Below, one piece after another: positions 5,695 through 57,900 of a stretch of 64,000 bases of DNA (position 1 is the first letter of the stretch; each line of letters starts with the position of its first letter). The notes beneath the pieces are model-generated. The model saw nothing but the letters and a program-made list of their open reading frames with translations, was not told the DNA's origin and did not search any database. The position numbers were made by a program, and so were the translations under genes. The stretch comes from Bacteroidia bacterium. GTDB taxonomy: Bacteria; Bacteroidota; Bacteroidia; UBA8524. Location: assembly GCA_035906255.1 (NCBI GenBank), contig JAMIFM010000022.1:6856-70855 (forward strand), in the 5' to 3' direction.

Positions 5695-6612
5695 TTAATC
5701 ATTAATGTGCTGCTCATAAATAGCTCCAGAACTAGAATGTATAAAGGGGTCTAACTCAGTCCTTAGATTACTTAAATCATCTAATTGATTGATAAATAAC
5801 TTAACAAATAGCATTTCTTCTTTTGTTAAATGGTTGTTTATAGCAAATCTTAAATAATCAAGTTTATCAGATGGTATATTACTATGTAAAATACACTTAT
5901 ATACTGCAATAAATTTATAAATAAGCGATTGAATATCATTATAGTACTTTTCTTTTTTTAAGGTGTTAAACATTGCATTAATAAGTTTATCAACTAATTT
6001 GTCACGTTCTTTAACACTTTTAAGTTCTAAGTTAGAATAATGTTGTTCAGCTATAGCATTTGTAAAACAAAGAGTAAGAAGAGTATTTTTAACTGTCTTA
6101 AAAGCATTTATTCCTTTATTATTATCAATAACAAAATTATCTCTACTATTCTCATACTTCTCAAGCAATTTGAATACGATACTCTCCAGCCGTTCTAATT
6201 TTGCGTTTTGTTCAGTGCGCTCCATGATAGCAGCACTGTTTTTCATTTCTTCAACAGATTGTTTTAGTGCATCCGATGCAGTTTTAAGTTCTTCTTTCTG
6301 CACTAAAAAGGAATTGTAAAGTAGTATAATAGTAATGAGGGATAATACAGGGGCAGCTATCCCATTAAAGAAATTACCTATTTTATCGAACTCTTTAATA
6401 CAAAGCAATTGGTTGATTACAATAAATAAAACAATCAATACGATGGTAATACCTATCACCCAACCAGTAAAGTTTCGACTCTTTTTATATTTAAATAAGG
6501 ACTTAAAATCATCTATTTTAGTAGCGTCTTCAATATGACTTGACAATTTTCTATACGAAAATAGAAACTCATAATTGGAATTTATTAACAAAAGGTAATA
6601 GCTTCTTGTCAT
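5695..6612 (-). CDS. low-GC membrane-anchored protein, possible abortive-infection (putAbiC-like) family; paralog of 51087..51836
   Basis: 305 aa. An N-terminal TM segment is followed by a conserved G-IAAPVLSLI-LLY-FL-Q block that is shared with the ORF at 51087, then a long coiled-coil-like region. Codon usage is very AT-rich relative to its neighbours. Confidence 0.45.
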   Translation of the reverse strand: MTRSYYLLLINSNYEFLFSYRKLSSHIEDATKIDDFKSLFKYKKSRNFTGWVIGITIVLIVLFIVINQLLCIKEFDKIGNFFNGIAAPVLSLITIILLYNSFLVQKEELKTASDALKQSVEEMKNSAAIMERTEQNAKLERLESIVFKLLEKYENSRDNFVIDNNKGINAFKTVKNTLLTLCFTNAIAEQHYSNLELKSVKERDKLVDKLINAMFNTLKKEKYYNDIQSLIYKFIAVYKCILHSNIPSDKLDYLRFAINNHLTKEEMLFVKLFINQLDDLSNLRTELDPFIHSSSGAIYEQHIND

Positions 6613-6845
6613 TCTGACCGAAGGGAAGAATCCTATTATAATTGTGTTAACAAAGCGATATAAGATGCTTCACTACCGTTCAGCAGGACAGGTAGTGAAC
6701 AATATTTGCTCCCTATGAACAGGTTGTCTCGTCAGCAGAAGACGAATTCCTCACAATGGTGCAAAGGATTAACCAATTTTTAAATTTTAAAATCTCCAAA
6801 TCAGTTAATTAAAGCAAATCGTCCTTCGGCAAGCTCAGGAGGGAT
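6605..6845. repeat. copy A of a mosaic intergenic repeat family
   Basis: It contains the modules gtcattctgaccgaagggaagaatcc and tccttcggcaagctcaggaggg. These recur at 11090-11610, 13030-13095, 41972-42180 and 49985-50345. Confidence 0.6.
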
Positions 6846-9800
6846 CACATATTCCGCCTATATTGGCCGCCAACTTCAAACAAAGCGTTGGTTATTTGTC
6901 CCAATGAGCAGTATTTAACCGCTTCCATCAGTTGTTCAAACAAGTTGCGGTTTTCTATGGCTGCTTTTTGCAGTTCGGCAAGCAGTTGGGGGGCTTTGTC
7001 GGCGTGTACCTTGTGCAACGCTTCCATAGCGGTAATTTGGTAATCTTTTTCCTCCTTGGTACTACGTATTACCTCTTGGGGAACAACGGTAGGCGAACCT
7101 TTTGACGATAAGAAAGTATTTACCCCAATTATCGGGAACTCTCCGGTATGTTTTAACGTTTCGTAATACAGGCTTTCCTCTTGTATTTTGTTACGTTGGT
7201 ACATGGTTTCCATTGCACCCAGTACACCTCCGCGCTCGTTAATACGATCAAACTCAGCCAATACAGCCTCTTCTACCAAGTCGGTAAGCTCTTCAATGAT
7301 AAACGCCCCTTGTATTGGGTTTTCGTTCTTAGCCAATCCCAACTCTTTGTTAATAATCAATTGGATGGCCATTGCACGGCGTACACTTTCTTCGGTAGGT
7401 GTAGTAATAGCCTCGTCATAGGCGTTGGTATGCAAACTTTGGCAGTTATCATAAATAGCATACAATGCCTGCAAAGTGGTGCGTATATCGTTAAAATCAA
7501 TCTCTTGTGCGTGCAATGAGCGTCCGCTGGTTTGAATGTGGTATTTCAACATTTGGCTGCGCTCGTTGGCTCCGTATTTGTTTTTCATGGCTTTTGCCCA
7601 AATACGGCGGCTTACACGGCCTATCACGCTGTACTCAGGGTCGATACCGTTGCTAAAGAAAAACGATAGGTTAGGAGCGAAGTCGTTAATGTCCATACCC
7701 CTGCTCAAATAATACTCTACATACGTGAAACCATTTGATAATGTGAGTGCTAACTGCGTAATAGGATTGGCTCCGGCTTCGGCAATGTGATACCCGCTAA
7801 TTGACACCGAATAGAAGTTACGCACGTTCTTATCAATAAAATATTGTTGAACGTCGCCCATTACCCTCAAACTGAACTCTGTGCTAAAAATACAAGTGTT
7901 TTGGGCTTGGTCTTCTTTCAATATATCAGCCTGCACAGTACCGCGTACTGAAGCAAGGGTTTTTATTTTTATAGGCTCATACACTTCGGCAGGTAATACT
8001 TGGTCGCCTGTAACGCCCAACAGCATCAACCCTAAACCGTCATTCCCTTGTGGCAGATCGCCTTGGTATTTAGGTTCGGGCAAACCTTTAGCGGCAAAAA
8101 TAGCGTGCACCTTTTGGCGCACTTCTTCTTCTAAGCCGTTTTGTTTGATGTATAGCTCGCACTGCTGGTCGATTGCGGCATTCATAAAGAATGCGCAGAT
8201 AATGGCCGCAGGGCCGTTTATCGTCATAGATACCGAAGTAGTAGGGTCGGCAAGGTTAAAGCCTGAATACAATTTTTTAGCAGCATCCAAACTCCATACC
8301 GATACACCCGAGTTACCTACTTTACCATAAATATCGGGGCGGTAATCAGGGTCTTGGCCATATAGGGTTACTGAATCAAATGCAGTAGAAAGGCGTTTGG
8401 CAGGCATACCCAAACTTACGTAGTGAAAACGGCGGTTGGTACGCTCAGGGCCACCTTCGCCCGCAAACATACGGGTAGGGTCTTCGTTCTCACGTTTAAA
8501 GGGGAACACGCCCGAAGTGTATGGGAACTCACCGGGTACGTTTTCTTGCAACATCCAGCGCAATAAGTCGCCCCACGCTTGGTATTTGGGCAATGAAACT
8601 TTAGGAATACGGGTATGGGATAATGACTCACTAAACGTTTTGATTTTCAGTTCTTTATCACGTACTTTAAAGATGAAATAATCGGCTTTATAGCTCGCTA
8701 CTTTGGCTTCCCACTCCTCTAACAACTTCTTGTTTTTAGGGTCGAGGTTTAATTCAACCTCTTTGTAAGCAGCTTCTAAAGCGGCTATCAAATTATCTTT
8801 GTCAGCCGTTTTGGTTTCTTTAATCGTTGCAATGCTTTGGTGCAGGCTATACAGCTTTTGTGCAGTAGCTACCTGTTGATCCACCCAACGGTCATACGAA
8901 CGGTTACTTTCGGTAATCTCGCTCAAATAGCGGGTACGTTCGGGGGGAATGATGTATATCTTTTTCGACATTTCTGCCGATACTTCAAACGTTGATTGTA
9001 ATGGAGCACCTGTTTTAGCCACCAACATATCAATAATGTTGCGGTACAGGCGGTTCATGCCCGGGTCGTTAAACTGCGAAGCAATCGTTCCAAATACAGG
9101 TATTTGCTCATCGGGCGTGTCCCATAACTGATGATTGCGTTTGTATTGCTTTTTCACATCGCGGATAGCATCCAATGCACCACGCTTGTCAAACTTGTTC
9201 AAAGCAATAATGTCCGCAAAATCCAGCATATCAATTTTCTCTAACTGTGTGGCCGCACCGTATTCGGGGGTCATCACATACAGGCTCATATTGCTATGCT
9301 CAATAATTTCAGTATCGCTTTGCCCTATCCCCGAAGTTTCAAGGATAATAAGGTCAAATTTTGCAGCCTTTACAATATCTACCGCTTCTTTCACATACTT
9401 GCTAAGGGCAAGGTTACTTTGGCGGGTAGCCAACGAACGCATATACACACGCGGGTTGCGGATGGCGTTCATGCGGATACGGTCGCCCAGCAATGCACCA
9501 CCTGTTTTACGTTTAGAAGGGTCAACCGATATAATGGCGATGGTTTTGTCTTTAAAATCAATTAGGAAACGGCGCACCAACTCATCCACCAATGACGATT
9601 TACCTGCACCACCCGTACCCGTAATACCCAACACAGGGGTTTTAACGTCGTTGCTCAGTTGCTGTATTTCAGTCAGCATGGGGGCAGCTTCGGCATAGTC
9701 GTTTTCGGCTGCTGAAATAAGGCGAGCAATGGCTTTTACATCGCGCTCGGCAAGGTGTTTCACTTGACCGTTCAGGTTTTTACCCGTAGGGAAGTCGCTT

Positions 9801-10234: not shown

Positions 10235-10341
10235 GGTTTACAGTTTAAGAAACCGCAAAGGTAAGGAATTTTGGGGGATGTGGGAATTTGAACGTTTATT
10301 GGATATTCTTCTATCTTTGTTTAGGAATATAACACTGAAGA

Positions 10342-11073
10342 ATGAGTAAGGTAAGAATAAAAATTGCATTCTTAGGACATGTGCAACACAATATTAGTAA
10401 GGAAAAAATTTTGCGATGGAAATCCTCGTTATTTCTAATAAATGCTCCAATAGATACTTACACAATAAATAACAATTCAGATATAGATGATTGGAGTTAC
10501 TCGGATGTAACAATCCAAAATGAATTACCCACTAATTTCGACGGGGATATTCTAATAGCTATAACAAATGTACCGATAGAAGATAATTATTTTGCACGAA
10601 GGTTAACGAATAATAGACTTTGCCTCAGTTTACATGAAATGAGTGATATTTTAAAGTTAGATAATATACCACTTGAAAATTTGATTTTCAGAGTATGTTA
10701 TGCTTTATCTTTAATTTTCAAGGAATGCAATAAACTCCCCACAATAGCTGAATATTCTAAATTTACTCATGATGAAACCAAAGGATGTATCTTTGATATG
10801 AATGGTATAAAAACAGATATTATTTATTCTACGAATAAGCCAATATTATGTGATTCATGCAAAGAACGATTGAAAAAAGTGAAAATAGAAAGTAATCTTA
10901 TTGATGATATTCAGAGTGAACTAAACAAAATTAATAAAACATTATATTATAGAATTACTGACTTTGTGAAAAAAGAACCTGTTTGGTCTATACTTATCTC
11001 ATCTTTAGCTGCTATTGTATTAGGGACTATTGGTTCTTTAGTTGCGTCAGTTATTTTCGAAAAAATAAAATAA
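10342..11073 (+). CDS. hypothetical protein, soluble N-domain with single C-terminal TM anchor
   Basis: 243 aa and very AT-rich. The C-terminal hydrophobic helix is SILISSLAAIVLGTIGSLVASVIF. Cys pairs are present (CDSC). I recognise no family. Confidence 0.4.
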   Translation: MSKVRIKIAFLGHVQHNISKEKILRWKSSLFLINAPIDTYTINNNSDIDDWSYSDVTIQNELPTNFDGDILIAITNVPIEDNYFARRLTNNRLCLSLHEMSDILKLDNIPLENLIFRVCYALSLIFKECNKLPTIAEYSKFTHDETKGCIFDMNGIKTDIIYSTNKPILCDSCKERLKKVKIESNLIDDIQSELNKINKTLYYRITDFVKKEPVWSILISSLAAIVLGTIGSLVASVIFEKIK

Positions 11074-11089
11074 TTTTATATTTTAATTC

Positions 11090-11610
11090 TCCCGATTGGA
11101 GAATGTCGAAGTGGAGCAGAGGTGATGGTTGTTGCGGATAGAGAGAAAAAAGCAGAAACAATTTTCGTCATTGCGATAAAACCGTCTTCGGGTTTAGAAG
11201 CAATCCGTTTGCATAGTTTCAACGGGATTGCTTCAACCAAGCTGCGCAAGGCATTGCAATGACGGGGTGGTGTGTTTCTTAACTCACCCCAGCTATTGGC
11301 AAGACTTCGATTACTCAATTTCTCCCTCTCTATGCAAAAGAGAGGGACGACGTGGTGAACGTCGGGCTTTGTAATTATTCGGGGGTGAGTTAAAAGGCAC
11401 ACCTCCCTCAATCCCTCTTTATTCAAGGAGGGGAGCCACCCTGCAAGCCATTTACAGACGTACGAATATTTTGTCTAACCTGATAACTTTTAACAGATAA
11501 CCAATCTGTGAGCCAGTGCCGTTGCCAAGTTCCCCTCCTTGGTTGAGTTTGCGGGAAAGGCAAGGAGGGGTTAGGGGAGGGTCTTTTAAATCAACCTGCT
11601 TAGGCAATAC
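11090..11610. repeat. copy B (largest) of the mosaic intergenic repeat family
   Basis: GC-rich palindromic modules gtcattgcgataaaaccgtcttcgggtttagaagcaatccg, ggaggggag/ctcccctcc and agagggacgacgtgg. Its reverse complement is found at 50240-50290. Confidence 0.6.
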
Positions 11611-11613
11611 CGT

Positions 11614-12870
11614 TTATGTTCCCGGGGCTTGTAACTCAGCGTAAAAACCCTGAGGGTCTTCGCCAATATAGGTTATTGTACCTTTAAGCGTTTGCCCGTG
11701 ATTAAATGATGAAATATTAATGGCTTTAAGGTATCTACGAGGATTAAGTCCCATAAGCCATGTGCCGCTCGGCTTCCATATCGATCCCGCCGAGGGGTAA
11801 TACGCCTCTTTTACCATATAGCTATATTTATTGACAAGTGTAGCAATAACTTCCATTTCAGGCATGCTATCGTATTGTAAAGTACCTTTTAGCGTTTCTC
11901 CGTGATCATCACTAAATATATTCAGCTTTATTACGTGTTGTTTTAGGTAGCCGAATGTCCATCTGTTGATGGGGTTTTCCGGTAATTCTCCCAAGTCGAT
12001 TTGAACTTTATAATTGTTATGTATCAGTGCGTAAAGTACCTGCTGCTGGGTTTGCTCAAACATAAAGTTTCGCGTATTAAGACACCAGTTAATATAGTTT
12101 TTGAGTTGGAAATTCTCGGTGTTTGCTATATATGCATCTAATGCGGTTTGCGGCCCATCATCAAACTTAGACTTAACAATATAGGGAGCTTCAAACTCAG
12201 CCCCGTAAGTAAATAGTTGCTTGATTACCCCCCTAAAGAGATTTAATACATGATCGTGTCTACCTAATCTAAGGTTTACAAAATCAATATAGTTATTTAT
12301 GGTTGCTGTATCGGTATTACGATTGGTGGCGGGCGAAAGGGATAAGTAATAGGTGCCGTTCCAATTCCTAAAGTTTTCACTAATTATACTAAAAAAATAT
12401 TTAAAGTGATCTATACCGGTAGCTTCGCTAATGGGATTGTCCCAGAATACATCCAGTGCGTTTAATTTGTGATAAGACATAAATCCATAAAGATTGCTTG
12501 CAAATCGGTTTATATCTCTTTTAGGGTCGTCGGATACAAATAACTGGTTAATCATGTTTTTATCATTAGAAGCTAATGTAATTCCCAGTTTAATATTAGA
12601 GTTGTTTTCTTTGGCATCGCGTGTGAGGTTCTTCATATATATCGGACTGTCTGTTTGCAAGGTATATGAAGAACCATCCCCTTGGGGTATGGTGTATGCA
12701 CTTGTGGGAACAATCTTTACTGAGTACATATATAAAATATCTATACTTTGGTAAACATCATATTTGATAAGGTTTTGATAGCTGCTGTCAGGGTCGTCGT
12801 ACTTGGTTCCAAAAATGTCGTGCTCTAAATAAATCCAAGCGTTGGAAAGGTTTTGCGGGGTTGTTTGCAT
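11614..12870 (-). CDS. two-domain protein: GH18 (chitinase-like) TIM-barrel lacking the catalytic Glu, plus a C-terminal OAA-family lectin
   Basis: 418 aa. The N-terminal ~280 aa follow the GH18 strand pattern: AWIYLEH, IDILYMYSVKI, KLGITLAS and LNALDVFWDNP. The last is in place of DGxDxDWE. The C-terminal ~135 aa hold two internal repeats, SDDHGETLKGTLQY and NHGQTLKGTITYIGEDPQGF, that align with OAA repeats (GDDGQTLNGTMTYAGEGPIGF). No signal peptide. Confidence 0.6.
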   Translation of the reverse strand: MQTTPQNLSNAWIYLEHDIFGTKYDDPDSSYQNLIKYDVYQSIDILYMYSVKIVPTSAYTIPQGDGSSYTLQTDSPIYMKNLTRDAKENNSNIKLGITLASNDKNMINQLFVSDDPKRDINRFASNLYGFMSYHKLNALDVFWDNPISEATGIDHFKYFFSIISENFRNWNGTYYLSLSPATNRNTDTATINNYIDFVNLRLGRHDHVLNLFRGVIKQLFTYGAEFEAPYIVKSKFDDGPQTALDAYIANTENFQLKNYINWCLNTRNFMFEQTQQQVLYALIHNNYKVQIDLGELPENPINRWTFGYLKQHVIKLNIFSDDHGETLKGTLQYDSMPEMEVIATLVNKYSYMVKEAYYPSAGSIWKPSGTWLMGLNPRRYLKAINISSFNHGQTLKGTITYIGEDPQGFYAELQAPGT

Positions 12871-13382
12871 AATGATAAGGTTTAGTTAGTTAGCTGTATA
12901 ATTAATAGTTTATCAAATATATTAAAACATTAGATGTTTTTAAGTGTTTATTTTTTTTAAATAATATTCTTAATAACTATTAGGTAGAGCTTAAAGCGTG
13001 AGGTATTAGTGTATGGACATAGTATATATTTGCCCGAAGTTTCCTCGCTACGCGTCGGAATGACAGGATGGGTGATGACGTTTTTGGGAGGTGTTTATCT
13101 CAAATGCAAAAAATGCATCAGAAAATTTTTAAATGCTGTGTTTGTTCTTTAGCATTTCCAATTATATGGGAGTGAATGTTCTTTGATTTGAAACCCGACC
13201 GGAAGAAACCCTTGGTAATAGCGTAACAAAAATAACAATGTAACCGAGTAACATCGTAACACGGTTGTTTTTACGAGGTTAATACACCGTAAATCAAAAT
13301 CGCGTATACTTTAAAATTTGAGGGGCAGGTGAGGCTTAGTGTTGTATATTGTAGTATTTGCTATTTGGAAATGAGCTATAAA

Positions 13383-13415
13383 CAAAAACTCCCGACGAAC
13401 AAAGTTCATCGGGAG
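13383..13415 (-). terminator. rho-independent terminator downstream of nrdA
   Basis: A 12-bp stem (ctcccgacgaac/gttcatcgggag, one mismatch) is followed on the minus strand by a T-run. Confidence 0.6.
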
Positions 13416-13486
13416 CGGAGATTTATATCAGACAATTTGAAACAGTGACTTGGAGCAAGATTCCGAAACAAGTTCGGGATGACTTT

Positions 13487-29641: not shown

Positions 29642-30031
29642 ATGATGAGTGATAAAGTAATTATAACACCATTAACAGTATACGCCGAACATGAACGGGG
29701 CAAAACCCTATTGTTCGATAATCAACGTAAGGGTGAGTTTATTTTAGGGTACAGGATAAAGGACAGCATTAGCGGCAGGCATTACCACAAGGGGTTAGCA
29801 GATTACAAAAATCCTGAGATTTTGATACTTGTTTCAGGGAGTATTCAGTTAAAAACCATTGACTTAGAAACTAAAAATGAGCAGTTGGTCATAATAATGG
29901 AGCCGAGCCGTATTGAGATTTCAGCAATGATTTGGCATGAGGTGCTGGCACTAACTGATTGTGTATTTTTAGAAATGAACAGTATAGCCGATTGTGAGGC
30001 AGATACCCATAAATTGGAACAAACAGCATGA
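29642..30031 (+). CDS. WxcM-like (FdtA-type) cupin domain protein
   Basis: 129 aa. It has the cupin motif GRHYHK...ILVSGS...WHEV. Its stop overlaps the parC start (ATGA). Confidence 0.55.
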   Translation: MMSDKVIITPLTVYAEHERGKTLLFDNQRKGEFILGYRIKDSISGRHYHKGLADYKNPEILILVSGSIQLKTIDLETKNEQLVIIMEPSRIEISAMIWHEVLALTDCVFLEMNSIADCEADTHKLEQTA

Positions 30032-32712
30032 GTGACGAGCACATAAATAACGACGAATTACCCGAAAACGAGGAAAGTACAAGCCCTTCGGAAGAAAACG
30101 AGACCCTGCAAGGCGCATTACCCGTTAGCGGGATGTACGAAAACTGGTTTTTAGAGTACGCATCGTATGTAATCTTAGAGAGGGCAGTACCCCACGTAAA
30201 CGATGGCTTGAAACCCGTACAAAGGCGTATTCTGCATGCAATGTACGAGATGGATGATGGCCGCTACAACAAAGTGGCTAACATTATCGGGCAAACCATG
30301 CAGTACCATCCGCACGGTGATGCCTCTATCGGCGATGCACTGGTGGGGTTGGGACAAAAAGACCTTTTGATTGATACACAGGGTAATTGGGGAGATGTGC
30401 GCACCGGAGATGATGCCGCAGCCCCCCGTTATATTGAAGCAAGACTTTCTAAATTAGCGCAAGAGGTTGTATATAACCCAAAAACTACCGAATGGCAGTT
30501 AAGCTATGACGGCCGTAAACGTGAGCCTATAACGCTACCCGTAAAGTTTCCGTTACTGCTGGCACAAGGAGTTGAAGGTATTGCGGTAGGTTTGGCTACC
30601 AAAATTATGCCTCACAACTTTTGCGAGTTGTTACAAGCATCCATAAACCTGCTTAAACACAAACCTTTTGAGCTGTATCCCGACTTTCAAACAGGGGGTA
30701 TGGTAGATGTAAGTAACTACCAAAAAGGGGAGAGGGGGGGCAAAATACGTGTTAGAGCAAAGATTGAAGAAATAGATAATAAAACATTATCTATTAAGAA
30801 TATACCTTTTTCTACTACAACTAATAGTTTAATTGAAAGTATCATTAAAGCTAATGATAGCGGAAAGGTTAAAATTAAGAAAGTTATTGATAATACTGCT
30901 AAAGATGTTGAGATAGTAATTCATTTGGCTCCGGGTGTGTCGCCGGGTATAGCCATCGACGGATTGTATGCCTTTACTGATTGCGAAGTATCTATATCAC
31001 CTAACGCCTGTGTAATTGTTAACGATAAACCCGTTTTCCTTTCAGTAGATGAAATACTAAGGTTGTGCACAGAAAATACCAAGCAATTGCTGAAAAGCGA
31101 GCTTGATATACGCATGGGTGAATTGGAAGATAACTGGCATTATTCATCGCTTGAAAAGATATTCATCGAAAACCGCATCTACCGTGATATAGAAGAAGAG
31201 GAGACTTGGGAGGGGGTTTTAACCGCAATCGACAAAGGATTAAATCCTTATAAAAAGCTATTGCGCCGTGAAGTAACGCAGGAAGACATCATAAAGCTGA
31301 CCGAGATACGTATTAAGCGGATTTCTAAGTTTGATTCGTTCAAAGCCGATGAGCACATCAGAGGCTTAGAAGATGAAATGAAAGAAGTGCAGTTTAACTT
31401 AGACAACTTGGTGGATTATGCTGTGAAATACTATGAAAACTTGTTGAAGAAATTTGGCAAGGGTCGCGAACGCCAAACCGAAATACGCACTTTTGATACC
31501 ATACAGGCTAACTTGGTGGCCGTAAACAATCAAAAGCTATACGTGAACCGAGAAGAAGGCTTTGTGGGTTATGGTTTGAAGAAGGACGAATACGTGAGTG
31601 ACTGCTCAGACATTGATGATATAATTGTATTCCGCAGCGATGGTAAAATGCTGGTTACAAAAATCACCGAAAAGTCGTTTGTGGGCAAAGATATTATCCA
31701 TGTAGGCGTTTTTAGAAAAACTGATGACCGTATGGTTTTCAATATGATATATGCCGATGGTAAAACTGGAACTTCAAGGGTAAAACGGTTTAATGTGGGG
31801 GGGATTACTCGTGATAAAGAATACGATTTAACCACCGGAAAAAAGGACTCTAAAGTACTTTATTTTACTGCCAACCCTAATGGTGAAGCTGAAATTGTGA
31901 GTGTGCAGCTAAGTACGTTTTCAAAAGCTAAAAAGCTTGCCTTTGATTTTGATTTCAGCACACTGGCAGTAAAAGGACGTGGCTCACAGGGTAATATACT
32001 TAGCCGTCACTTGGTTAAAAACGTCAAGTTTAAACAAGCGGGTGTATCTACCCTCGGCGCGCAAAAAATATGGTATGATACCAGTATAGGCCGTTTGAAT
32101 ACAGACGAAAGAGGATTATATATAGGCAGTTTTGACGGAGAAGATAAGATATTAGTGGTGTTTAAAAACGGTGATTATGAGCTTACCAACTTTGAATTAA
32201 CCAACCACTACGAATCAGCCGACGTTATATTTATCCGCAAATACAATCCTAACAAGGCCGTTACGGTAGTATATTTTGACCACGAAGGGGGCAATTACTA
32301 TATCAAGCGGTTTATGATTGAAACACTAACCGTTGATAAGAAGTTTCGCTGTATTGCTGACGGGGACAAAAATTATATTGTGGCCGCTACCGATAATGCC
32401 GAGCCTGAACTGCAAATAACATACGGTAAAAAGAAAGAAGCTACCGAAGAAACACTGCAATTGGCAGAGTATGACGTGAAAGGCTGGAAAACTGTAGGCA
32501 CGAAGTTGAGCGGTAAGGACGTTACGGCCATGCAATTGATTGAAAAGGTTGAAGAAGAGGAAGAAGTTGAAGCCGAAGATGGTGACGACGGTGAGGAGGA
32601 TGGTTCTTTAACAGCCCCGACTGATGACCCTGTTTTGGATGAAATGCTTAAAAACCGCCCCAAACCACCTGCTGACGGTACTATAAAAATAGAACAAAGC
32701 AGTTTGTTTTAA
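30028..32712 (+). CDS. parC: DNA topoisomerase IV subunit A
   Basis: 894 aa. The catalytic region is GyrA/ParC-type (GLKPVQRRIL...HPHGD). The C-terminus is acidic. Confidence 0.85.
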   Translation: MSDEHINNDELPENEESTSPSEENETLQGALPVSGMYENWFLEYASYVILERAVPHVNDGLKPVQRRILHAMYEMDDGRYNKVANIIGQTMQYHPHGDASIGDALVGLGQKDLLIDTQGNWGDVRTGDDAAAPRYIEARLSKLAQEVVYNPKTTEWQLSYDGRKREPITLPVKFPLLLAQGVEGIAVGLATKIMPHNFCELLQASINLLKHKPFELYPDFQTGGMVDVSNYQKGERGGKIRVRAKIEEIDNKTLSIKNIPFSTTTNSLIESIIKANDSGKVKIKKVIDNTAKDVEIVIHLAPGVSPGIAIDGLYAFTDCEVSISPNACVIVNDKPVFLSVDEILRLCTENTKQLLKSELDIRMGELEDNWHYSSLEKIFIENRIYRDIEEEETWEGVLTAIDKGLNPYKKLLRREVTQEDIIKLTEIRIKRISKFDSFKADEHIRGLEDEMKEVQFNLDNLVDYAVKYYENLLKKFGKGRERQTEIRTFDTIQANLVAVNNQKLYVNREEGFVGYGLKKDEYVSDCSDIDDIIVFRSDGKMLVTKITEKSFVGKDIIHVGVFRKTDDRMVFNMIYADGKTGTSRVKRFNVGGITRDKEYDLTTGKKDSKVLYFTANPNGEAEIVSVQLSTFSKAKKLAFDFDFSTLAVKGRGSQGNILSRHLVKNVKFKQAGVSTLGAQKIWYDTSIGRLNTDERGLYIGSFDGEDKILVVFKNGDYELTNFELTNHYESADVIFIRKYNPNKAVTVVYFDHEGGNYYIKRFMIETLTVDKKFRCIADGDKNYIVAATDNAEPELQITYGKKKEATEETLQLAEYDVKGWKTVGTKLSGKDVTAMQLIEKVEEEEEVEAEDGDDGEEDGSLTAPTDDPVLDEMLKNRPKPPADGTIKIEQSSLF

Positions 32713-41971: not shown

Positions 41972-42180
41972 TGCCTTGGATTTCCTGAGTTTGCCGAAGG
42001 AGCCCTTCGACAAGCTCAGGAACCCGATTATCGTCATTGCGAGGAGGAGGCACGACGACGTGGCAATCTGTTTATATAGTTTGGACTGGATTGCTTCGGG
42101 AAGACCCTCGCTATGACGATAAAACACTGTCATGCTGACGTAGGAAGCACCTTATCCCGTTTTGTTAATAACAGTTGTAA
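41972..42180. repeat. copy D of the mosaic intergenic repeat family
   Basis: Modules ccttcgacaagctcagga, tcgtcattgcgaggagg, cctcgctatgacg and gtcatgctgacgtaggaagcacc. The last is the reverse complement of 50085-50110. Confidence 0.6.
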
Positions 42181-42262
42181 TAAGGTTCTTTCCTGTAGTC
42201 AGAAAGACAGGGGTATTTAGGGGTTAATTACAAATTGCTTATCTTTGCAAACTTTATAAAAA

Positions 42263-49402: not shown

Positions 49403-49430
49403 AAGCCCCGCCCAACCGCGGGGCTTTTTT
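49403..49430 (+). terminator. rho-independent terminator after hppA
   Basis: agccccg...cggggct stem followed by TTTTTT. Confidence 0.7.
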
Positions 49431-49984: not shown

Positions 49985-50345
49985 TTACTTTGCGTTGGTT
50001 TATGTGTTGATTTGCTTATCTCATCCCTGTCCTTCTGAGCGATAGCAAAGAATCCTACACCAACTGTGTTTACAAAGCGGGATAAGGTGTTTCCTTCGTC
50101 AGCATGACAATACCCCCTAAATCCCCTGTGGGGACTTTACCAACGACGTACCAGCGCGGTTGCCATCCTGAGAATGCCGAAGGGTGCGGCTGTTTCCCTC
50201 CTTGGGTGGTTAGTGGGTTGGTAAGAAGGGACTAAGGGAGGTGTCAAACGGATTGTTTCTAAACCCGAAGACGGTTTTTCGCAATGACGATAGTTGAGCG
50301 AGTGCGGGGCAGTTCTCCTGAGTTTATCGAAGGAGCGCGTATAGT
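49985..50345. repeat. copy E of the mosaic intergenic repeat family
   Basis: It contains the reverse complements of modules in copies B and D, and ends with the ctcctgagtttatcgaaggagc module that begins copy D. Confidence 0.6.
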
Positions 50346-50386
50346 TATAAAAACAAAATAGTAAATTTGACAGAACAGGATTAATA

Positions 50387-51052
50387 ATGAATGTACAAGA
50401 AGTTCTTGCCCAACTGGAAGCCCTTGGCAATGCTAAACTGCGCGAGCAAAACAAAAAACGCGGTGCCGGTGAAAACCAATTTGGGGTAAAAATGGGTGAT
50501 ATACGCACCGTGGCTAAAAAGATAAAGACCAACCATGACCTTGCGCTGGAGCTATGGGAAACGGGAAACGTTGAGGCACGGCAAGTGGCAATATTAGTCG
50601 CAAACCCTAAAAAGCTGTCGTACGACGAAATAAGTCACTGGGTAAAATCAGAGAAATATACGTGGGTGGCTGACTGGCTATATTCATATATACTGAAAGA
50701 CAGGGCTGATAAAGAAACCCTGCGCCAAGAATGGATGCAAACCGACGATGTGATGGCTGCCCGCGCAGGCTGGAGTTTTACCAGCGGTTGTGTGGCACGC
50801 CAGCCTGAATTGGTGGATATACCCGCCCTGCTTGACCGTATTGAAAAAGAAATGCCCACCGCTACACCCGAAGTGCAATGGACAATGAACAGCACGCTGG
50901 CTAATATTGGCATACACCACCCGCAATACCGCGAACGTGCCTTGGCAATAGGGGAGAAGCTGGGCATTTACAGGGATTATCCCGTTTCGAAAGGCTGCAC
51001 TTCTCCCTTTGCCCCGATATGGATTGGGGAGATGGTTAAGAGGCAGGAGTGA
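50387..51052 (+). CDS. DNA alkylation repair (AlkC/AlkD-like HEAT-repeat) protein
   Basis: 221 aa. The segment DLALELWETGNVEARQVAILV...WVADW fits the DNA_alkylation family. Confidence 0.65.
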   Translation: MNVQEVLAQLEALGNAKLREQNKKRGAGENQFGVKMGDIRTVAKKIKTNHDLALELWETGNVEARQVAILVANPKKLSYDEISHWVKSEKYTWVADWLYSYILKDRADKETLRQEWMQTDDVMAARAGWSFTSGCVARQPELVDIPALLDRIEKEMPTATPEVQWTMNSTLANIGIHHPQYRERALAIGEKLGIYRDYPVSKGCTSPFAPIWIGEMVKRQE

Positions 51053-55353: not shown

Positions 55354-57900
55354 CTATTCGGCAGTATTATCAGTTGGTGTAATATTTTCTCCGTTCACTC
55401 CCTCTTCGCCATTGGTTTCCTCTTCATCTTCGGCACGTTCTACTTTGGCTATCGAGGCAATTTCATCCCTGTCGCTCATCTTAATCAGTCTTACACCTTG
55501 AGTTGCACGACCCATTACCCTTAAATCAGCTACGTGCATACGGATTGCCATGCCCGATTTTAGAATAATCATCAAGTCGTTTTCATCAGTAACGTCTTTT
55601 ATACCGATAAGGTTGCCGGTTTTTTCGGTAATGCTAAGAGTTTTTACTCCTTTTCCTCCCCTTCCGGTGATACGGTAATCTTCTAAATCGGTACGTTTAC
55701 CATAACCTTTTTCAGATACCACCATTATAGTAGTGTCTGTATTAGTAGGATTTACACTTATCATGCCAATCACTTCATCGTTGGCGTTCTCAAGTTTAAC
55801 ACCTGTAACACCGCTGGCAGTACGACCCATAGGGCGAACAAGGCTCTCGTTGAAACGGATTGCCTTACCGCTATGCTTGGCCATGATAATTTCTGACTTA
55901 CCATCGGTTAGCAGTGCTTCTAATAGAGTATCACCTTCCCTAACCGTGATGGCGTTAATACCGTTCTGACGTGGACGAGAGTATGCTTCAAGAGTTGTTT
56001 TCTTGATAATACCTTTTTTGGTACACATGATAATCACGTTGTTTTGCAAATACTCTTCATCTTTCAGGTTTTCTACCGTAATGAAAGCTTTTACCTTATC
56101 GTCAGGTTCAATATTAATAAGGTTTTGTATGGCGCGGCCTTTTGCTGCACGGCCTGCTTCGGGTATTTCATACACCTTTAGCCAGTAGCACTTACCTTTT
56201 TCGGTAAAGAACAGCATATAGTTGTGGGTGGTTGCCACAAACAAATGTTCAATAAAGTCCTCGTCGCGGTTAGCAGCACCTTTATTACCGCGTCCTCCCC
56301 TGTTTTGTACCCTAAATTCGGTAAGTACGGTACGTTTAATGTATCCCATGTGGCTGATGGTTAGCACCACCTGCTCATTAGGAATCATATCTTCTATGCT
56401 TATATCGTCAGATGCGGGAACAATATCAGTACGGCGTTCATCGCCATACTTATCACGCATCTCAATTAACTCATCTTTAATAATTTGCATTCGCAAACCT
56501 TCATCGGCCAATATGCTGTTCAAATAATCAATCAACTTCATTATCTCAGCATATTCATCGCGTATTTTATCACGCTCAAGGCCTGTTAAACGCTGCAAAC
56601 GCATATCCAAAATGGCGCGTGCCTGTATTTCGCTTAACTGGAATTTTTCAATCAATCCTTCGCGGGCTTCATCAGGTGTTTTTGAACCGCGTATCAGCGC
56701 AATTACCTCGTCCAAATGGTCAAGGGCAATCAATAAGCCCTCTAAAATGTGGGCACGCTTTTTAGCCTCATCCAGTTCAAACTGGGTACGACGAACAACC
56801 ACCTCGTGGCGGTGTTCAACGTAATGTTTGATAAGGTCTTTCAGGTTCAGCAACATAGGGCGGCCTTTTACAAGGGCAATGTTGTTTACGCTGAATGAAC
56901 TTTGGAGTTGAGTGTATTTATATAGTTGATTAAGGATGATGTTTGGTATGGCATCTTTTTTCAAATCGAAAACAATGCGTAAACCGTCACGGTCACTCTC
57001 ATCCCTCACATCAGATATGCCTTCAATTACCTTTTCGTTCACCAAATCCACCGCTTTTACAATCAGCTGGTTGGGTTGGGTCATAAAAGGTATTTCAGTA
57101 ATTACAATTTGGTCTTTACCGGTTCTGGTAGTATCAAAGTGAGCTTTACCACGAATAACAATACGTCCGCGGCCTGTTTCAAAAGCATCTTTAATACCGT
57201 TCATACCATATATTGTACCCCCTGTTGGAAAATCAGGGCCTTTAATATGGGTCATCAACTCACTAATCTCAATGTCGCGGTTATCTATGTATGCTACAGT
57301 AGCATTGATAGCTTCAGTAAGGTTGTGAGGGGCCATGTTTGTGGCCATACCTACCGCAATACCGCTTGCACCGTTTACTAAAAGGTTGGGTATTTTAGCA
57401 GGCATTACCGACGGTTCTTCCAGCGAATCGTCAAAGTTGGGAGTAAAGTCAACGGTATTTTTATCAATATCCGTCATCATTTCCTCGGCCAATCTTCTTA
57501 AACGTGCTTCGGTATAACGCATCGCTGCCGGAGGGTCACCGTCAATCGAACCAAAGTTACCCTGCCCGTCAACCAGCATATAACGCATACTCCAAGGTTG
57601 AGCCATACGCACCATTGCATCGTAAACGCTACCGTCGCCGTGCGGGTGATACTTACCCAACACCTCTCCTACTATACGTGCTGATTTTTTATACGGACGG
57701 CCACTACCTAAGCCAAGCTCGGTCATACCATACAATACCCTGCGGTGTACGGGCTTTAAACCGTCGCGCACATCAGGAAGTGCACGTGAAACAATTACCG
57801 ACATCGAATAATCGATGTAGGCGGTCTTCATTTCATCTTCAATGTTAATGGGGATTATTTTTTCTCCCAACTCGTCGTTCAGGTTGTTCTCCTCTGCCAT
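55354..57900 (-). CDS. gyrA: DNA gyrase subunit A
   Basis: 848 aa. N-terminal catalytic Tyr region ([11 protein letters not shown]...HPHGD) and C-terminal beta-pinwheel repeats. Confidence 0.95.

What the first reader, a model, noticed from the sequence alone, without database searches (positions are those of the whole stretch)
11090..11610. Mosaic GC-rich intergenic repeat family, at least five copies in both orientations
Short modules recur in intergenic DNA across the window: gtcatt[c/g]cga.., ccttcg[g/a]caagctcagga, cctcgcta[tc]g[ac]cg, gtcatgctgacgtaggaagcacc, and caaacggattg[ct]ttctaaacccgaagacggttt. The copies are at 6605-6845, 11090-11610, 13030-13095, 41972-42180 and 49985-50345. The module 11168-11210 is the reverse complement of 50240-50290. 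The module 42130-42152 is the reverse complement of 50085-50110. The end of copy E repeats the start of copy D. So the elements are shuffled combinations of palindromic sub-units, in the way REP/BIME or MITE-like elements are. They are GC-rich islands in otherwise AT-rich spacers, and they create false ORFs at 11076..11426 and 50137..50532. Two copies directly flank the paralogous Abi-like genes.
Basis: seen in the sequence. Interest (0 to 1): 0.55.

Follow-up and report, generated by a model that had tools for sequence, protein, structure and literature searches.

The report
Hairpin repeat clusters between genes
The intergenic repeats are real: they are copies of a widespread, already described family of short hairpin-forming DNA repeats (CGTC/TGTC-tagged REPs, the motifs that small GIY-YIG "Ssn" single-strand nucleases recognise), here in an uncultured Bacteroidota genome without the nuclease gene nearby.

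Summary
Five intergenic gaps (6606-6846, 11074-11613, 13040-13068, 41982-42212, 50025-50338) share three repeat modules far beyond chance (blastn E 1e-10 to 1e-16; the short module occurs 5 times against 0.05 expected).

- The unit is about 26-40 nt: a YGTC tag, a stem starting with AT, a hairpin and a CC tail.
- Units mostly occur as inverted pairs with the tags outside, forming 85-100 nt hairpins, with no target-site duplication.
- This is the anatomy of the CGTC-tagged REP superfamily (Di Nocera 2013). Its Neisseria member, dRS3/NTS, is the target of the GIY-YIG ssDNA nuclease SsnA (Chenal 2025).
- In loci I fetched, 9 of 12 Ssn-like genes sit between such tagged units, against 4% of control ORFs. 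One window unit (6607-6632) is identical to a unit beside such a gene.
- The window has no ssn gene and no RAYT-like ORF. The units also fail the published SRM search pattern, so partnership with an Ssn nuclease here is inferred.
- The clusters also hold unrelated palindromic modules, and lie at or near places where gene content differs between related genomes.
- The "paralogous Abi-like genes" claim is not supported.

Verdict: a new member of a known kind, of modest interest.

The parts
6606..6692 (-). M1: inverted doublet of two TGTC-tagged palindromic units with the tags outside and a conserved spacer with central GTTAAC. It is opposite in orientation to the copy at 42127.
   Evidence: blastn to 42127-42212 and 50025-50110. 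nhmmer E 8e-22. Sharp ends TGTC...GACA in alignment A2. 6607-6632 is identical to a unit beside an Ssn-like gene in L201. Its tag supplies the ATG of ORF 5695..6612.
6713..6765 (-). Decayed single M2-type unit.
   Evidence: Weak match to 11162-11216 (65%). The orthologous position in L132 holds an intact unit, CGTTATTGCGAGGAAACCGTCTTCGGCTGACGAAGCAATTG.
6822..6846 (-). M3 unit (CCTGAGCTTGCCGAAGG core) that overlaps the stop codon of the methylmalonyl-CoA mutase/MeaB gene.
   Evidence: Pattern match. An orthologous M3 unit follows the same gene in L132 and L133.
11166..11265 (.). M2: inverted doublet of CGTC-tagged units: CGTCATTGCGA..GAAGCAATCC, loop, GGATTGCTTC..TGCAATGACG.
   Evidence: Inverted repeats. 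Fold -41.8 kcal/mol, z -5.5. The left unit is 98-100% identical over 47-50 nt to copies in L123, and 110 nt are 78% identical to L124. Same design as 138 copies from IMG/VR contigs.
11265..11407 (.). M4: long inverted repeat (arms 11265-11290 and 11382-11407) that encloses two small hairpins. Not of the CGTC type.
   Evidence: Fold -68.1 kcal/mol, z -7.1. Weak relative in L130 9747-9863.
11424..11590 (-). M5: composite CCCCTCC/GGAGGGG-type module. Not of the CGTC type.
   Evidence: Matches L132 12701-12850 and 13274-13371, and L133 14700-14845 (70-85% identity, E 1e-16 to 2e-24).
13040..13068 (-). Single tagged unit TGTCATTCCGACGCGTAGCGAGGAAAC.
   Evidence: Tag motif hit.
13458..13486 (-). Short hairpin unit directly after the ribonucleotide reductase stop codon. 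It is AGTC-tagged here and a canonical TGTC unit with an 8-bp stem and 5-nt loop in L132.
   Evidence: The true T-run terminator lies further downstream at 13388-13416.
41982..42022 (.). M3 doublet: two inverted M3 units 3 nt apart, with degenerate tags.
   Evidence: 19-nt arms, 89% complementary. Fold -26.8 kcal/mol, z -7.1. Pattern hits.
42028..42124 (.). M2 doublet, diverged copy: TTATCGTCATTGCGAGG ... CCTCGCTATGACGATAA.
   Evidence: 17-nt arms, 94% complementary. Fold -38.7 kcal/mol, z -5.1.
42127..42212 (+). M1 doublet. It is absent from the same place in the congeneric loci L125 and L126.
   Evidence: Fold z -4.1. Nucleotide homology with L125 starts at 42216, right after it.
50025..50110 (-). 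M1 doublet, partly decayed.
50161..50186 (-). M3 unit.
50196..50241 (.). CCCTCC...GGGAGG hairpin module. Not of the CGTC type.
   Evidence: Part of a 151-nt stretch that is 78% identical to L123 5547-5694.
50245..50296 (-). Single M2 unit (one half of a doublet).
   Evidence: 92% identical to the reverse complement of 11159-11211. Tag hit.
50313..50338 (-). M3 unit.

Best explanation
The modules M1, M2 and M3 are non-coding hairpin repeats of the CGTC/TGTC-tagged REP superfamily. Recent work calls this kind Ssn-related motifs.

Anatomy of one unit:
- a 5' tag YGTC;
- a stem that starts with A-T and T-A;
- here, usually 5 base pairs, then GA opposite GA, then a small apical hairpin;
- a 3' CC tail.

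Two units in inverted orientation with the tags outside give the 85-100 nt hairpins M1 and M2. Single units and tag-less remnants are also present, mixed with unrelated palindromic modules.

Most likely mode of action, inferred by analogy: when the DNA is single-stranded, a unit folds. A small single-domain GIY-YIG nuclease of the Ssn family, encoded elsewhere in the genome, binds it in one orientation and nicks a few bases 5' of the tag. This would shape recombination of DNA that carries the motifs. Doublets without a gene look like internal-deletion derivatives of a unit-ssn-unit arrangement, much as MITEs relate to insertion sequences.

Shown here: the repeat families, their tags, their pairing and their turnover between relatives, and the bracketing of Ssn-like genes by such units in other genomes.

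Taken from the literature: ssDNA binding and cleavage by Ssn.

Inferred: that this genome encodes a cognate Ssn, and that Ssn spreads the repeats.
For: Repeat families are real.

Tags:
- Among 138 M2-type copies, the base before GTCAT is C or T in 94% and the base after ATGAC is G or A in 97%.
- M1 ends sharply at TGTC...GACA.

Other anatomy:
- Stems start with AT and tails are CC.
- Doublets have their tags outside, with spacers whose ends are complementary copy by copy (3.53 of 6 positions against 2.30 +/- 0.12).
- There is no target-site duplication.
- These match the definition in PMC3733652.

Literature: PMC11893778 shows that SsnA binds and cuts the Neisseria member of this superfamily as ssDNA only, and that ssn genes are flanked by such motifs.

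My own samples:
- All 7 GIY-YIG genes in 2.04 Mb of repeat-selected loci lie next to tagged units.
- All 8 genes in a protein-first sample do so as well.
- 9 of 12 have tags on both sides, against 4.0% of 4199 control ORFs.
- Window 6607-6632 is identical to a unit in the doublet about 50 nt upstream of the Ssn-like gene in L201.

Mobility or turnover:
- The same unit is 98-100% identical in other genomes. In one of these, the Bacteroidia MAG of L124/L130, 41 nt of the left unit are identical by eye and 71 nt are 89% identical, whereas its mtaB gene is 79% identical in DNA.
- The site upstream of mtaB holds different module sets, or none, in four relatives.
- Short-read contigs break inside region B.
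Against: - No Ssn-like ORF is present in the window or in about 150 kb of relatives' loci (HMM search). The rest of the source genome could not be searched.
- The published SRM search pattern gives 0 hits in the window. The pattern is correctly implemented, since it matches NTS and several other loci.
- The unit-level hairpins are weak by nearest-neighbour energies (-2 to -4 kcal/mol).
- The M3 units mostly lack the tag.
- No Ssn homologue flanked by these exact unit types has been tested biochemically.
- The one Ssn-like gene whose organism I could name is from Patescibacteria, not Bacteroidota.
- A preprint links the Neisseria member of the family to a RAYT instead.
Confidence: 0.68

Rival explanations
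1. The doublets are REPINs in the strict sense: non-autonomous elements copied by a single-copy REP-associated tyrosine transposase (RAYT, of the HuH-Y1 IS200 kind) encoded elsewhere. The enzyme would recognise the hairpin plus a 5' tetranucleotide in single-stranded DNA.
For: - Inverted doublets that form hairpins, a 5' tetranucleotide tag and no target duplication all fit the REP/RAYT model.
- In Neisseria, the repeat ATTCCCGCGCAGGCGGGAATC (CGTC-1/dRS3) decays in lineages whose Group-2 RAYT is frameshifted (10.1101/2021.07.10.451892).
Against: - The tag is YGTC, not GT[AG]G.
- No ORF with HuH...Y motifs was found in the window or in 2.04 Mb around several hundred units.
- PMC3733652 found no tyrosine transposase gene flanked by CGTC units.
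- The REPs of the Bacteroidetes RAYT subclass 2.6 are of the GCTAG-CGCGAGCG kind.
- GIY-YIG genes, not RAYTs, are the genes found bracketed by these units.
Confidence: 0.12
2. The hairpins act mainly as RNA or cis elements at the 3' ends of transcripts, as terminators or stabilisers against 3' exonucleases, and are kept for that reason.
For: - All five clusters lie between tandem or convergent genes, and none lies between divergent genes.
- Units sit directly on or just after the stop codons of the mutase gene (6822-6846) and the reductase gene (13458-13486). They are kept at the same places in relatives with 84-89% DNA identity.
- The folds are strong (z -4 to -7).
Against: - None of M1-M5 is followed by a T run, and separate canonical terminators exist at 13388-13416 and 49403-49426.
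- There is no Rfam match even at E <= 1.
- Copies occur in both orientations and as decaying fragments.
- The arms do not covary copy by copy (own partner -9.98 against permuted -10.30 kcal/mol).
- Such a role could exist alongside the main explanation rather than replace it.
Confidence: 0.12
3. They are classical MITEs: deletion derivatives of a DDE-transposase insertion sequence, moved through their terminal inverted repeats.
For: They have terminal inverted repeats, small size, dispersed copies and an intergenic location.
Against: - There is no target-site duplication in 7 M1 copies or in 137 M2-type copies. For repeats of 3 nt, 2 were observed against 1.8 expected.
- No transposase family is enriched among 150 neighbouring ORFs.
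- The plasmid collection gave no match.
Confidence: 0.03

Closest known systems
CGTC-tagged REP superfamily (Di Nocera, De Gregorio and Rocco 2013, PMC3733652). It includes Neisseria dRS3 and Rickettsia RPE-4 and RPE-6.
   Same: - Terminal CGTC or TGTC tag.
- Stems that begin with AT, and a short CC(A) tail.
- Mostly 'head-head' dimers with tags outside and structured spacers of 20-100 nt.
- Location between unidirectional or convergent genes.
- Mosaic clusters with other repeats.
- No adjacent tyrosine transposase.
- Already reported in Bacteroidetes.
   Different: - The paper's four families have 8-9 bp stems and 4-5 nt loops.
- Most units here have only 5 Watson-Crick pairs, then GA/GA, then a small or long apical hairpin (units up to about 40 nt).
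- The figure with the family consensus sequences is not held, so I could not check assignment to CGTC-1 to CGTC-4.
Ssn-related motifs (SRM/NTS) and the Ssn GIY-YIG ssDNA nucleases (Chenal et al. 2025, PMC11893778).
   Same: - An oriented hairpin repeat with a conserved HGTC 5' flank and a C after the palindrome.
- Hundreds of intergenic copies clustered around genes.
- Units of the same types, one of them identical in sequence, bracket small single-domain GIY-YIG genes in other genomes.
   Different: - The window has no ssn gene.
- The published degenerate SRM pattern finds none of the window's units.
- 10 of the 14 Ssn-like genes in my samples had no hit to the pattern anywhere in the locus I hold. 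The motif space therefore seems wider than the published pattern.
- No biochemical data exist for these unit types, and Bacteroidota are not mentioned in the main text.
REPIN/RAYT systems and E. coli BIMEs.
   Same: Inverted REP doublets that form long hairpins, singlets as remnants, mosaic clusters, vertical persistence at orthologous sites and no target duplication.
   Different: The tag differs (YGTC, not GTAG). No RAYT was found. The family sequence is shared across phyla rather than being lineage-specific.

Membership tests
CGTC-tagged REP superfamily (PMC3733652) | Unpaired terminal tetranucleotide CGTC, often TGTC | tested here: met
   CGTC at 11166, 42032 and 50288(-). TGTC at 6607, 13064(-), 42128 and 50108(-). 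The base before GTCAT is C or T in 94% of 138 related copies. The M3 units mostly lack the tag.
CGTC-tagged REP superfamily (PMC3733652) | Stem begins with complementary A and T residues in positions 1 and 2; short tail fitting CCA | tested here: met
   ATTCT/AGAAT, ATGCT/AGCAT and ATTGC/GCAAT, followed by CC.
CGTC-tagged REP superfamily (PMC3733652) | Stem of 8-9 bp and loop of 4-5 nt | tested here: inconclusive
   Most units have 5 Watson-Crick pairs, then tandem G/A positions, then a 2-bp apical stem. This makes 9 positions only if G-A pairs are counted. The M2 units are longer (about 37 nt). The unit after the reductase gene is canonical (8-bp stem, 5-nt loop) in L132.
CGTC-tagged REP superfamily (PMC3733652) | Predominantly head-head dimers (tags outside) with 20-100 nt spacers; intergenic between tandem or convergent genes | tested here: met
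   M1 three times and M2 twice as such dimers. All clusters lie between tandem or convergent ORFs.
Ssn-related motif (SRM) / Ssn system (PMC11893778) | Match to the published search sequence HGTCWYN(0-2)YYVSBRHN(0-5)WNVSBRGN(0-2)RNCYNB | tested here: not met
   0 hits in the window (0.10 expected). The same regular expression matches NTS and the units in L260, L261, L197 and L256.
Ssn-related motif (SRM) / Ssn system (PMC11893778) | The same repeat type flanks a single-domain GIY-YIG (cd10448) gene | tested here: met
   Met in other genomes only. L184, L194, L201 and L233 have M1- or M3-type units on both sides, and L259 has ATTGC...GCAATCC units. 9 of 12 genes against 4% of controls. The window unit 6607-6632 is identical to one in L201. 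The proteins match Pfam GIY-YIG only. Membership of cd10448 itself could not be tested.
Ssn-related motif (SRM) / Ssn system (PMC11893778) | An ssn gene present in the same genome | not testable with these tools
   None in the 64-kb window or in relatives' loci L122-L133. The source genome is not in the collections, apart from two short Logan contigs.
Ssn-related motif (SRM) / Ssn system (PMC11893778) | Orientation-specific binding and cleavage of the motif as ssDNA | not testable with these tools
   Needs biochemistry.
REPIN/RAYT | 5' GT[AG]G guide tetranucleotide at the foot of the hairpin | tested here: not met
   The tag is YGTC.
REPIN/RAYT | A RAYT (HuH-Y1) gene flanked by the repeats | tested here: not met
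   No HuH...Y motif ORF in the window plus 2.04 Mb of loci. This was a motif regular expression, not a profile search.
DDE-type MITE | Target-site duplication flanking terminal inverted repeats | tested here: not met
Intrinsic terminator | GC-rich stem followed by a T run | tested here: not met
   None of M1-M5 is flagged. Separate terminators lie at 13388-13416 and 49403-49426.

The most novel reading that the evidence does not exclude
The unit types seen here have a 5-bp AT-started stem, GA/GA and an apical mini-hairpin, with cores ATTCT, ATGCT, ATTGC and CCCT. They may be recognition sites of Ssn subfamilies that the published SRM pattern does not capture. The gene-less inverted doublets may be MITE-like deletion derivatives of unit-ssn-unit elements. 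On this reading, Ssn would act as the propagating enzyme of a very widespread class of single-strand mobile elements that uses a GIY-YIG nuclease. It would then be the 'missing' enzyme of the CGTC REPs. The clusters would mark the borders of strain-variable gene cassettes, as NTS-gene-NTS does in Neisseria.
Probability: 0.25. Interest if true: 0.75.

Novelty: new member of a known kind. Interest (0 to 1): 0.35.

Why it matters
For annotation:
- These repeats explain long GC-richer intergenic gaps, spurious ORFs (11076..11426 and 50137..50532), a doubtful start codon (6612) and contig breaks in short-read assemblies of this lineage.

More broadly:
- The Ssn nucleases were described only in 2025 and are of interest as ssDNA tools.
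- The window, together with the loci gathered here, suggests that their motif repertoire is wider than the published search pattern.
- The same repertoire appears to extend to uncultured Bacteroidota.
- As in Neisseria, the repeat clusters sit at the edges of gene cassettes that differ between close relatives.
- None of this changes the kind of element.

Tried and rejected
- Literature search for the repeat sequence itself returned only primer matches.
- The plasmid collection gave no match to regions B or D.
- Rfam gave nothing on the repeats, either at gathering scores or at E <= 1.
- A generic search for 'GTC + AT-stem hairpin' was not discriminating: 6 hits against 5.7 expected.
- Exact-protein look-ups of window genes found only one 2.5-kb Logan contig. 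The source genome is not in the collections.
- The single genome-contig scan, with a 20-mer of M2, found 3 copies in two other MAGs and not the source genome. A whole-genome copy count was therefore impossible.
- Arm-to-arm covariation in M2-type doublets was absent. Selection on each copy's long hairpin is therefore not supported.
- Unit-level hairpins are only weakly predicted by DNA parameters.
- Pfam enrichment among 150 nearest ORFs of at least 90 aa was flat. The small GIY-YIG genes turned up only with a dedicated motif search.
- The last protein search showed that the L184 Ssn-like protein is from Patescibacteria. It therefore did not link Ssn to Bacteroidota.
- The 623-nt insertion in strain L131 is an unrelated small gene, not a repeat insertion.
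- The precise empty site for M1 upstream of mtaB could not be fixed, because the spacers are too diverged.

Full report

The window is about 40% GC.

A sensitive self-comparison gives three recurring modules:
- M1, about 86 nt, lies at 6606-6692, 42127-42212 and 50025-50110. Identity is 76-81%, E 3e-10 to 9e-16.
- M2 is full at 11166-11265, diverged at 42028-42124, and present as one half at 50245-50296. That half is 92% identical over 53 nt to the reverse complement of 11159-11211.
- M3 has the core CCTTCGRCAAGCTCAGGA. It occurs five times with up to 3 mismatches, against 0.05 expected.

The shared tag motif GTCATKSYGA occurs 7 times against 0.39 expected, and only in these gaps.

The modules are richer in GC (0.40-0.60) than the remaining spacer DNA (0.26-0.39).

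The two 'false ORFs' exist, have no Pfam match and run through the palindromes.

The statement about paralogous Abi-like genes is not supported:
- The neighbours of the clusters are a mutase/MeaB fusion, a GH18-lectin protein, ribonucleotide reductase, a DUF1801 protein, MtaB and a DNA-alkylation repair protein.
- The two unannotated neighbours have no Pfam hit and are unrelated to each other.

**2. Anatomy**

Intact modules fold into strong hairpins as single strands:

| Module | Energy (kcal/mol) | z-score |
|---|---|---|
| M2 | -41.8 and -38.7 | -5.5 and -5.1 |
| M3 doublet | -26.8 | -7.1 |
| M1 at 42127 | -30.7 | -4.1 |

Each long hairpin is a pair of inverted smaller units. One unit reads:
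- tag YGTC;
- a stem that starts with AT (ATTCT, ATGCT or ATTGC);
- GA;
- a small apical hairpin;
- GA;
- the other stem half;
- CC.

Seven aligned M1 copies (three from the window, four from another genome) end sharply at TGTC...GACA. Their flanks are unrelated and there is no target duplication.

The left and right units of M1 are two different unit types. By inspection of that alignment, their apical stems differ between copies while staying self-complementary (C..G, AC..GT, TAC..GTA, GC..GC, CC..GG). Nearest-neighbour energies for single units are weak, at -2 to -4 kcal/mol.

- a 143-nt inverted repeat, M4, at 11265-11407 (z -7.1);
- a CCCCTCC/GGAGGGG composite, M5, at 11424-11590.

Region E holds further CCCTCC-type pieces. 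The clusters are therefore true mosaics.

**3. The family is very widespread**

The M1-type unit pattern likewise hit more than 120 metagenome contigs.

In 138 distinct M2-type doublets:
- the conserved boxes are YGTCATTGCGAG, GAAGCAATCC and their complements;
- the base before the element is C or T in 94%, and the base after it is G or A in 97%;
- target duplications are absent;
- the spacer ends are complementary copy by copy (3.53 of 6 positions against 2.30 +/- 0.12);
- the variable arm segments show no copy-specific covariation.

This fits dimers built from a small set of unit types.

**4. Relatives, and evidence of turnover**

The source genome is not in the collections. Only two short Logan contigs are close to it, and both break inside region B.

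Protein neighbours place it among uncultured Bacteroidota:
- MtaB and reductase homologues at 97-98% identity come from MAGs labelled Bacteroidota.
- The nearest named genera, at about 69%, are Olivibacter and Sphingobacterium.
- Neighbouring genes carry Por_Secre_tail domains.

A 20-mer of M2 occurs in two other MAGs. There the left unit is 98-100% identical over 47-50 nt in L123. In L124, 71 nt are 89% identical, and by eye 41 nt of the left unit are identical. L124 comes from the same Bacteroidia MAG as L130, whose mtaB is only 79% identical in DNA. A non-orthologous repeat that is better conserved than coding DNA argues for recent copying from conserved masters, for transfer, or for constraint on the sequence.

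The site upstream of mtaB differs among relatives:
- The window has M3, M2 and M1.
- L125 and L126 (85% DNA identity) have a decayed M3, one M2 arm and no M1.
- L127 has no repeats.
- L130 has other units.

Cluster A, in contrast, is orthologous in L132 and L133: an M3 unit on the stop codon, a spacer, and a single M2-type unit. L132 continues with its own M1 copy and carries one extra doublet, and the window's M2 unit has decayed.

Tag-motif hits are 1.25 per 10 kb in the window. In the relatives' loci fetched through the MtaB gene (L125-L130) they are 0-0.5 per 10 kb. In those fetched through the reductase gene they are 0.4-2.2 per 10 kb.

**5. What it is**

The anatomy matches the CGTC-tagged REP superfamily of Di Nocera et al. 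(PMC3733652). That paper describes:
- a CGTC or TGTC tag;
- AT at stem positions 1 and 2;
- a CCA-like tail;
- mostly head-head dimers with structured spacers;
- location between unidirectional or convergent genes;
- mosaic clusters;
- presence in Bacteroidetes;
- no dedicated transposase.

Its Neisseria member is dRS3.

Chenal et al. 2025 (PMC11893778) showed the following:
- The oriented form of dRS3, called NTS, is bound and cut as single-stranded DNA only. The enzyme is SsnA, a 94-aa single-domain GIY-YIG nuclease.
- ssn homologues across phyla are flanked by such 'Ssn-related motifs'.
- The motif-ssn-motif arrangement looks like an insertion sequence.
- In Neisseria the pair restricts transformation by motif-bearing DNA.

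**6. My own tests of that link**

I found the association with GIY-YIG genes before reading the Ssn paper.

- A motif search found 7 small GIY-YIG genes in 2.04 Mb of repeat-selected loci. All lie next to tagged units. Typically one unit sits 25-50 nt upstream in the gene's orientation, and an inverted unit sits on or after the stop codon. The gene thus occupies the spacer of a head-head dimer.
- A protein-first sample from viral contigs gave 8 more genes, all with tagged hairpins beside them.
- With a simple 6-nt tag test, 9 of 12 genes have tags on both sides, against 4.0% of 4199 control ORFs.
- The units that flank several of these genes are of the window's M1 and M3 types. Window 6607-6632 is identical to a unit in the doublet upstream of the gene in L201.
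- The proteins match Pfam GIY-YIG only. Their nearest solved structure is a UPF0213 protein.

**7. Limits**

- The window and the relatives' loci contain no Ssn-like ORF.
- The published SRM search pattern finds none of the window's units. It does work on NTS and on four of my fourteen Ssn-like loci.
- I therefore file the repeats under the CGTC/TGTC REP superfamily. I treat the Ssn partnership in this genome as an inference.
- No HuH-Y1 ORF was found anywhere in 2.04 Mb.
- The REPs of the Bacteroidetes RAYT subclass 2.6 are of another kind.
- A preprint links the Neisseria repeat to a Group-2 RAYT, so that rival stays open.
- The repeats are not T-run terminators, and genuine terminators lie beside them.
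- A role at transcript 3' ends is possible for the units that sit on stop codons.

**8. Context noticed along the way**

The interval between the reductase and mutase genes (window 10281-13327) carries different genes in the window, L132 and L133, with repeat clusters inside it. Clusters A, D and E also lie at or near points where gene order differs from congeners. This resembles the motif-gene-motif arrangement described in Neisseria. It rests on very few comparisons.

**9. Verdict**

It is a new member of a known and recently characterised kind of repeat. The mechanism is taken by analogy, and the cognate nuclease gene was not observed.

Noticed in passing
window 10281-13327; L132 12665-15866; L133 12613-16872: The stretch between the ribonucleotide reductase and mutase/MeaB genes is a variable cassette. 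The window has a 243-aa ORF plus a GH18-lectin gene. L132 has DUF559 plus a KAP NTPase. L133 has a cNMP-binding protein, DUF4386 and two unknown genes. Repeat clusters lie inside the cassette in all three.
   Followed up: partly
L132 12700-13460: A 117-aa DUF559/MTES_1575 endonuclease-like gene (12895-13248, minus strand) is flanked by two direct copies of the roughly 190-nt M5 module (ACCACCCCTAACCCCTCCTTG...GGGGTGGT).
   Followed up: no
L131 2777-3399 (between window 13381 and 13357): A near-identical strain (97% DNA identity) carries an extra 623 nt with a 177-aa AT-rich putative membrane-protein gene, just after the reductase terminator. It is unrelated to the repeats.
   Followed up: partly
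window 6610-6612 (start of ORF 5695..6612): The ATG of this ORF is the complement of the repeat tag (GTCAT). The homologue in L132 aligns only from residue 45, so the real start is probably further downstream.
   Followed up: partly
L123 5100-6170: A MAG labelled 'Agrobacterium sp. 719_389' (GC 43%) holds a 1-kb tandem array with a period of about 300 nt, made of M1, an M3 unit and an M2 unit. It has three M1 copies and three M2-unit copies, and a fourth M1 copy lies outside it at L123 1546-1633. The label looks doubtful for a genome that shares these repeats with Bacteroidia MAGs.
   Followed up: no
L130 14100-21308: In the relative OZ252261.1, a phage-like block lies a few kb downstream of mtaB. 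It includes a CI-like repressor, a 695-aa protein, an AAA_22 protein, a Bac_DnaA_C protein and DUF3164. It is absent from the otherwise similar L129.
   Followed up: no
window 30577-30621 and 57319-57363: A 45-nt inverted match (80%) joins two long ORFs, 30028-32712 on the plus strand and 55354-57900 on the minus strand. From the sequence these are probably paralogous type II topoisomerase A subunits. Not tested.
   Followed up: no
window 42216-42262: The 47 nt upstream of mtaB are conserved with L125 and L126 and contain TAtcTTTG. From my own knowledge this fits the Bacteroidetes -7 promoter consensus TAnnTTTG. The repeat cluster ends exactly where this conserved stretch begins.
   Followed up: no
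L027 10486-10889: An Ssn-like GIY-YIG gene is split into two frames, probably a pseudogene. It is still flanked by CGTC-tagged GC-rich hairpins.
   Followed up: no
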